From contig OZ024765.1 of the NCBI GenBank assembly GCA_964016885.1, positions 12,338,001 through 12,402,000 of the forward strand: a stretch of 64,000 nt of DNA, in the 5' to 3' direction. The stretch is from Eledone cirrhosa. Its lineage: Eukaryota. Position numbers and translations under genes: made by a program. Below are positions 58,752 through 58,805 of the stretch, one piece after another; positions within the stretch are counted from its first letter, which is position 1, and each line of letters starts with the position of its first letter. The notes under the pieces were generated by a model. It made no database searches and was not told the origin of the DNA. It saw only the letters and a list, made by a program, of their open reading frames with translations.

Positions 58752-58805
58752 TATTGCTGACAATCGTTTCTTCCAAACTTTCGTTTGGAATCATCAGAGC
58801 ACTAG
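58752..58805 (-). ncRNA. Type I hammerhead with perfect 8-bp stem II and GAAA tetraloop
   Basis: Reverse complement reads tagtgct CTGATGA ttccaaac-gaaa-gtttggaa GAAA cgattg TC agcaataaaa; GUC site at + coordinates 58759-61. Confidence 0.85.

What the first reader, a model, noticed from the sequence alone, without database searches (positions are those of the whole stretch)
58752..58805. Textbook hammerhead with covarying stem II relative to its paralog 44 kb away
58752(-) and 14930(+) share ctCTGATGAttcca...tggaaGAAAc(a/g)attgTCagcaa, but stem II differs compensatorily: ttccaGa/tCtggaa versus ttccaAac/gtTtggaa with a GAAA tetraloop. 24408(-) gives a third variant, tccaagcc/ggtttgga. Structure preserved while sequence changes points to selection on the RNA fold in the source elements.
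Basis: partly seen in the sequence, partly recalled or inferred. Interest (0 to 1): 0.75.

Follow-up and report, generated by a model that had tools for sequence, protein, structure and literature searches.

The report
Variant-core hammerhead in Hydra-clade retrotransposons
This is a hammerhead (self-cutting RNA) motif in the end repeat of a very common Penelope-type jumping gene; most copies carry C at a core position that is almost always U, the textbook-looking copy here is likely a later point mutation, and cutting is predicted but untested.

Summary
The three motifs are real. Each sits in the 3' end repeat (pLTR) of a Hydra-clade Penelope-like retrotransposon, where type I hammerheads are already known. 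'Textbook' is misleading: the families' core is CCGANGA (U4C). With positions 4-5 left free, 85 of the first 100 family-A matches read CG and 7 read TG. The U copies arise at the rate of ordinary CpG transitions. A C4 pattern gives 11,622 genome matches (control 399); the U4 pattern gives 5,176 (control 976). A second lineage has C4 and A4 subfamilies. None of 49 motifs found in 78 related metagenome elements has C4 or A4. The stem II compensation is real but is one event on the subfamily tree. Selection on the source elements shows instead as a near-invariant core and stems beside fast-changing loops. Copies end downstream of the cut site and 0 of 30 start at it, so the template was uncut or re-ligated. 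Cleavage is untested. Verdict: a new core variant of a known kind.

The parts
58581..58867 (-). 5'-truncated fragment of a Hydra-clade Penelope-like element (family A): end of the 3' region, pLTR with hammerhead, and the long tail, between TA-rich microsatellites
   Evidence: 96% identity over 287 bp to another copy; 40 scored copies at 93-100% among 3470 first-look candidates
58807..58813 (-). predicted distal stem I, 5' strand (pairs with 58750-58744)
   Evidence: 78% of cells paired in 24 copies; also in predicted folds
58798..58801 (-). proximal stem I, 5' strand (pairs with 58758-58755)
   Evidence: sequence; 97% of cells paired
58791..58797 (-). core C3-A9, CUGAUGA in this copy; position 4 (58796) is C in the family majority
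58771..58790 (-). stem II: 7 conserved pairs, a GAAA loop, and a variable, mostly unpaired 10.1/11.1 position
58760..58770 (-). G12-A14 and a self-complementary stem III octamer, predicted to pair between two molecules
   Evidence: predicted duplex -5.8 kcal/mol; loop variants keep self-complementarity
58758..58761 (-). GUC triplet; predicted cut between 58759 and 58758
   Evidence: sequence; position by hammerhead consensus; cleavage not tested
58744..58758 (-). stem I 3' strands
14442..15013 (+). family B fragment, hammerhead core at 14930; U4 and a stem I mismatch absent from the family majority
14311..14449 (-). inverted partner of the family B copy; shares U4 and the stem I change, and has G8 changed to C
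24319..24568 (-). family C fragment, hammerhead core at 24456, GUA triplet, C.U at 10.1/11.1

Best explanation
The motif is a type I hammerhead in the pseudo-LTR of a Hydra-clade Penelope-like retrotransposon whose family core is CCGANGA, and the U4 in this copy is likely a later C-to-T change at a CpG. In the source elements the RNA likely folds as a dimer through the self-complementary stem III. It would cut after GUC or GUA slowly or only with protein help, trimming read-through or tandem transcripts while leaving enough uncut or re-ligated RNA as template. Shown: the element anatomy, the core state, the conservation pattern and the copy ends. Inferred: dimer folding, cleavage, its rate and its role.
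For: Full-length unit of 4146 nt with 495-bp direct repeats (99%), each holding the motif; the ORF has the Hydra-type motifs. Same-strand endonuclease upstream in families A, B and C. C4 majority: 85 of 100, 88 of 100, 83 of 100. TG is 13 of 100 at the core and 11 of 88 at the loop II CpG. C>T is 10-16% at CpG against about 5% elsewhere; the core shows 3 of 23. Across 18 subfamily representatives, 12 of 13 core columns never change, against 4-5 changes per loop II column and a flank mean of 2.9; N7 and H17 vary, H17 never to G. Two 3' ends (about +48 in 14 of 30; long tail in 16 of 30) lie beyond the cut site. This matches the two initiation sites, uncut template and protein-assisted cleavage reported for another PLE (PMC11167929, passages).
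Against: No cleavage data. No Rfam hammerhead match. U4 changes are reported to lower activity strongly (PMC3088659 passages; PMC9901934 passages), so C4 could mean little or no cutting. 0 of 30 copies begin at the cut site. Monomer folds do not show the open hammerhead as the minimum-energy structure, and the window copy's z-score is -0.77. Ten of the 18 representatives are single copies, many picked by core-bearing patterns, so core invariance is partly built in; it also holds for the six majority-based subfamilies (n at least 4). The window's inverted B pair shares U4, so some U4 changes predate insertion. One full-length copy has G5A in both repeats, which shows that a copy with a damaged core can be propagated or duplicated.
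Confidence: 0.68

Rival explanations
1. The C4 motif no longer cuts; the fold and purine-rich core are kept as a binding or loading site for the element's RT-endonuclease protein.
For: Position 4 is C in one lineage and C or A in another (A 55, C 36, U 8, other 1 of 100 at position 4). 10.1/11.1 is mostly unpaired. Every copy was made from RNA continuous through the site. Hammerhead mutants did not affect insertion in vitro in another PLE.
Against: The catalytic guanines, the rest of the core and the not-G rule at position 17 are all kept, which is the pattern expected of catalysis. U4C is reported to keep enough activity in vivo in a viroid.
Confidence: 0.17
2. C4 is nearly neutral in this long-stem, dimeric context and the ribozyme is about as active as other PLE hammerheads.
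For: The lineage is very successful (11,622 pattern matches). Unchecked scan notes report U4C recurring in phage hammerheads.
Against: If neutral, frequent C>T change should have fixed U4 in some subfamilies; all six majority-based subfamilies keep C. Published mutagenesis shows low activity for changes in CUGA.
Confidence: 0.1
3. One reading: a textbook CUGAUGA hammerhead whose stem II covariation shows selection.
For: The copy does read CUGAUGA, and the A-U/G-C swap exists.
Against: U4 is 7-13% of copies and tracks CpG mutation. The swap is one event.
Confidence: 0.05

Closest known systems
Hammerheads of Hydra-clade Penelope-like elements (Craig et al. 2021, PMC8557442; read: passages, the Hydra section, supplement parts 1, 2 and 52 including the HHR table)
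   Same: Type I motif near the 3' end, palindromic stem III, (TA)n insertion, frequent non-G-C 10.1/11.1 (many U.U rows), same protein motifs; an octopus family (Hydra-1_Obim) is listed.
   Different: All 26 Hydra rows of their table have CUGA (found with a descriptor that requires it). Here the source core is CCGA, or CAGA in a second lineage, and the unit is about 4.1 kb rather than under 3 kb.
Minimal hammerheads of metazoan PLEs (Cervera and De la Pena 2014, PMC4209133; read parts 1-2 of 4)
   Same: pLTR location, long helix II, short helix I, dimer architecture, low predicted activity.
   Different: They report a conserved G10.1-C11.1 pair and a U3-A8 variant; no position-4 variant in the parts read.
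U4C natural variant (Perreault et al. 2011, PMC3088659; read: passages and the core-variation section)
   Same: The same core change, said to lower activity in vitro yet permit viroid infectivity.
   Different: There it is a rare variant; here it is the majority state of families with thousands of copies.
PAc Poseidon element hammerhead (Frangieh et al. 2024, PMC11167929; read: passages)
   Same: Two genomic 3' ends (tail signature); uncut RNA serves as template.
   Different: Different clade; cleavage was shown there and needs protein; no core variant in the passages read.

Membership tests
Hammerhead ribozyme, type I | Three-way junction with open stem I, closed stem II, and stem III | tested here: met
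   Stems I, II and III are 97%, 85% and 98% paired over 24 copies; slid controls 34-44%
Hammerhead ribozyme, type I | Core C3, G5, A6, G8, A9, G12, A13, A14, A15.1, U16.1, H17 | tested here: met
   No change in 18 representatives; H17 is C, A or U; some selection bias
Hammerhead ribozyme, type I | U4 | tested here: not met
   Met in the window copies only; C in 83-88 of 100 unbiased matches
Hammerhead ribozyme, type I | Paired 10.1-11.1, usually G-C | tested here: not met
   U-A 6, C.A 4, A.G 4, C.U 2, A.A 1, A-U 1 of 18; U.U is common in published Hydra rows
Hammerhead ribozyme, type I | Match to an Rfam hammerhead model | tested here: not met
Hammerhead ribozyme, type I | Site-specific self-cleavage | not testable with these tools
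   no bench data
Hydra-clade Penelope-like element | Single ORF, RT then C-terminal GIY-YIG endonuclease, flanked by pLTRs | tested here: met
   L095, L096; Pfam GIY-YIG 21 bits, E 4e-4, just under the 22.6 cut-off; no RT family hit for the long ORF in Pfam
Hydra-clade Penelope-like element | RWK-like and DKT motifs, CxCX5C linker, CxxC and CxH around the endonuclease end | tested here: met
   RWR, ADKT, CNCRSNRTC, CNLC and CQH read by eye in the translations against the description
Hydra-clade Penelope-like element | Insertion into (TA)n; inverted 5'-truncated partners; tail at one end | tested here: met
Hydra-clade Penelope-like element | Placement with published Hydra references in an RT tree | tested here: inconclusive
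   The tree (quick method) held no published reference; the family groups with other own-genome elements and Argonauta proteins
Non-LTR retrozyme | Short (about 170-400 nt) non-coding tandem repeats | tested here: not met
   Copies are dispersed truncations of a 4.1-kb coding unit

The most novel reading that the evidence does not exclude
A branch of Hydra-clade retrotransposons has abandoned the invariant U4 of the hammerhead, possibly twice (C4 in one lineage, C4 and A4 in another), and amplified it to over ten thousand copies. The ribozyme would be held down on purpose and switched on only by dimerisation or by the element's own protein, or it has become a protein-loading fold. Standard CUGANGA searches would miss most hammerheads of this shape in such genomes.
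Probability: 0.35. Interest if true: 0.7.

Novelty: new variant of a known kind. Interest (0 to 1): 0.46.

Why it matters
What PLE hammerheads do is an open question. Here nature supplies matched C4, A4 and U4 versions in near-identical sequence context, plus an almost intact protein, so rate and protein dependence can be measured directly. It also shows that descriptor-based counts can miss a majority class: for the one pattern shape tested, C4 matches outnumber U4 matches by more than two to one in this genome. The window copy itself is an ordinary truncated fragment.

Tried and rejected
Rfam found no hammerhead. The idea that C4 avoids a register-slipped misfold was tested by folding 26 sites with C or U at position 4. 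The penalty for U was small and mixed in C4 families (-0.7 to +2.6 kcal/mol, monomer) and as large in U4 families, so it is not supported. A genomic trace of cleavage: 0 of 30 copies start at the cut, and one starts at +5 after a microsatellite. A single-protein metagenome scan found nothing. A PDB search gave only a weak retron RT match. I first linked the second lineage to the L134 endonuclease; four other loci showed a different one (39-41% identical to family A), so I corrected this. One or two origins of C4 could not be resolved: the tree does not join the two lineages, supports are 84-92, and nested insertions blur which motif belongs to which RT. Retrozyme was rejected. Lunse et al. on PLE hammerhead variants and Nelson and Uhlenbeck 2008 were not held, so a prior mention of C4 there cannot be excluded.

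Full report
Observation. The three sites are present as described, with the core starting at 58797(-), 14930(+) and 24456(-). The main site has a 4-bp proximal stem I, CUGAUGA, an 8-bp stem II with a GAAA loop, GAAAC, a 4-nt loop and GUC at 58761-58759. The loose core pattern occurs 15 times in the window against 1.46 expected. Rfam gives nothing at gathering level and no hammerhead family at the site up to E=10. A model built from 24 related copies finds four window sites: the three named and an inverted partner near 14400.

Context. The window lies in a 3.0-Gb animal assembly. The best named protein relatives are from an octopod at 38-39% identity, so the host is probably a cephalopod (inference). 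Each site is the end of a dispersed repeat, with 3470, 1791 and 2024 first-look candidates. Longer copies extend upstream into a GIY-YIG frame on the same strand (Pfam E 4e-4, just below the cut-off). L096 is a whole unit: 4146 nt between two motifs, 495-bp direct repeats at 99%, and an ORF starting about 270 nt after the first motif. The protein has RWR, ADKT, a CxCX5C linker, CxxC and CxH, the features given for the Hydra clade (PMC8557442, section read). Copies end in TA repeats and often have an inverted, truncated partner.

The core is not textbook. Even among copies ranked by likeness to the window's U4 versions, C4 dominates in all three families. I counted by hand the first 100 listed matches of patterns with positions 4-5 free. 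Family A: CG 85, TG 7, CA 3, other 5, of 250 total. The wider lineage: CG 88, TG 7, CA 3, other 2, of 3859. In a third pattern (786 total) the core reads CG 83, TG 13, CA 2, other 2; the loop II CpG reads TG in 11 of 88 after leaving out 12 rows of a subfamily with CT there. In copies chosen by their 3' flank, C>T is 10-16% at CpG and about 5% elsewhere, G>A is 8-13% against 4-5%, and the core shows 3 of 23. The U4 copies therefore fit ordinary CpG transitions. The inverted B pair shares U4, so that change came before or during insertion.

Scale and specificity. CCGANGA-N12-26-GAAAC-N4-GTH has 11,622 matches (reversed control 399). The CTGA version has 5,176 (control 976) and the CAGA version 1,397 (control 697). 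These are pattern matches, not curated copy numbers. A second lineage, with endonuclease 39-41% and RT about 52% identical to the first, keeps G10.1-C11.1 but reads AG 55, CG 34, TG 8, CA 2, AC 1 in the first 100 of 122 matches; four of the TG rows look like a small U4 subfamily. As an outside control I scanned 78 related metagenome loci with position 4 free. A motif was found in 49: 46 CUGA, 2 U3-A8, 1 likely spurious, none C4 or A4; 29 gave no motif, and several loci are the same family. All 26 Hydra rows of the published table have CUGA, though the descriptor required it. Other Hydra-like families in this genome have U4. Whether C4 arose once or twice is unresolved.

Covariation. On 24 copies, 85% of cells pair against 34-44% for slid controls, and the covariation score beats 500 of 500 shuffles, a control that ignores relatedness. 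The base of stem II barely changes, loop II changes 4-5 times per column, and 10.1/11.1 changes 6 and 4 times and is mostly unpaired. Twelve of 13 core columns never change; position 4 changes once, in a single copy picked for U. Flanks average 2.9 changes and 8% are invariant. The stem III loop varies while mostly staying self-complementary, including a two-sided change. Selection on the source elements is thus well supported, by conservation rather than by the one swap. Caveats: ten representatives are single copies, many chosen by core patterns, and flank misalignment may inflate the background.

Mechanism. Stem III is too short to be stable alone but forms an 8-bp duplex between two molecules (-5.8 to -6.4 kcal/mol predicted), as proposed for PLE hammerheads, which cut weakly in vitro (PMC4209133, parts 1-2). 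Of 30 loci chosen by the sequence just 3' of the cut (two pairs are not independent), 14 end about 48 nt past the site, 16 carry a longer tail that is the next unit's 5' leader, and none starts at the site. The template was therefore continuous through the site. That matches a PLE tested in vitro, where reverse transcription starts at two internal sites, uncut RNA is the main substrate and cleavage needs protein (PMC11167929, passages). U4C is described as lowering activity in vitro while still allowing viroid infectivity (PMC3088659), and changes in CUGA gave low activity in a mutagenesis scan (PMC9901934). I infer a slow or protein-assisted dimeric ribozyme. A misfold-avoidance reason for C4 was not supported, and I found no compensating change.

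Novelty. Hammerheads in Hydra-clade pLTRs are known, including an octopus family. I found no report of C4 or A4 as the source state of a PLE family in searches for 'hammerhead ribozyme, Penelope-like, octopus', 'hammerhead, U4C', 'hammerhead, CCGAUGA', 'hammerhead, U4A' and 'hammerhead, retrotransposon, non-canonical core, cephalopod'. Two relevant papers were not held, and figures and most supplements were not seen. PMC7229834, PMC6765202 and PMC3376415 were seen as passages only, and one 2026 preprint as part 1 of 5. Unchecked scan notes mention CCGAUGA in another animal's Penelope-mobilised repeat and in several phages, so U4C is a recurring variant rather than unique. Verdict: new variant of a known kind, interest 0.46.

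Noticed in passing
window 38877(-), 39080(+), 38591(+), 61803(+), 22425(-): Further hammerhead-like motifs with U4 cores from other repeat families; similar motifs lie downstream of other Hydra-like ORFs.
   Followed up: partly
L204, L205, L206, L208: A subfamily with a CAGANGA core (U4A), 55 of 100 matches, 10 of them clustered on contig C10.
   Followed up: partly
L096 (motifs at 5500 and 1354, minus strand): A full-length unit whose two pLTRs share the same G5A core change; it bears on circular versus tandem templates.
   Followed up: no
L154, L214, L215, L216: An abundant U4 motif with a short stem II (frequent) often occurs as head-to-head inverted pairs joined within 0-45 nt of the core start; its stem I is unclear and no ORF was linked.
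   Followed up: no
L047:998 and 910, L104:5818; L250, L282: U3-A8 core variants in the own genome and in two metagenome elements.
   Followed up: no
L209, L210, L211; L212, L213: Two other repeated motifs with CAGA cores and GAAAC; their stems are weak and their status is unclear.
   Followed up: no
window 36914-37015: A long, near-perfect GC-rich hairpin seen in the Rfam alignments.
   Followed up: no
window about 58373-58572 (-): A common short repeat (SINE-like, label recalled) directly follows the element's tail here and in several other copies.
   Followed up: no
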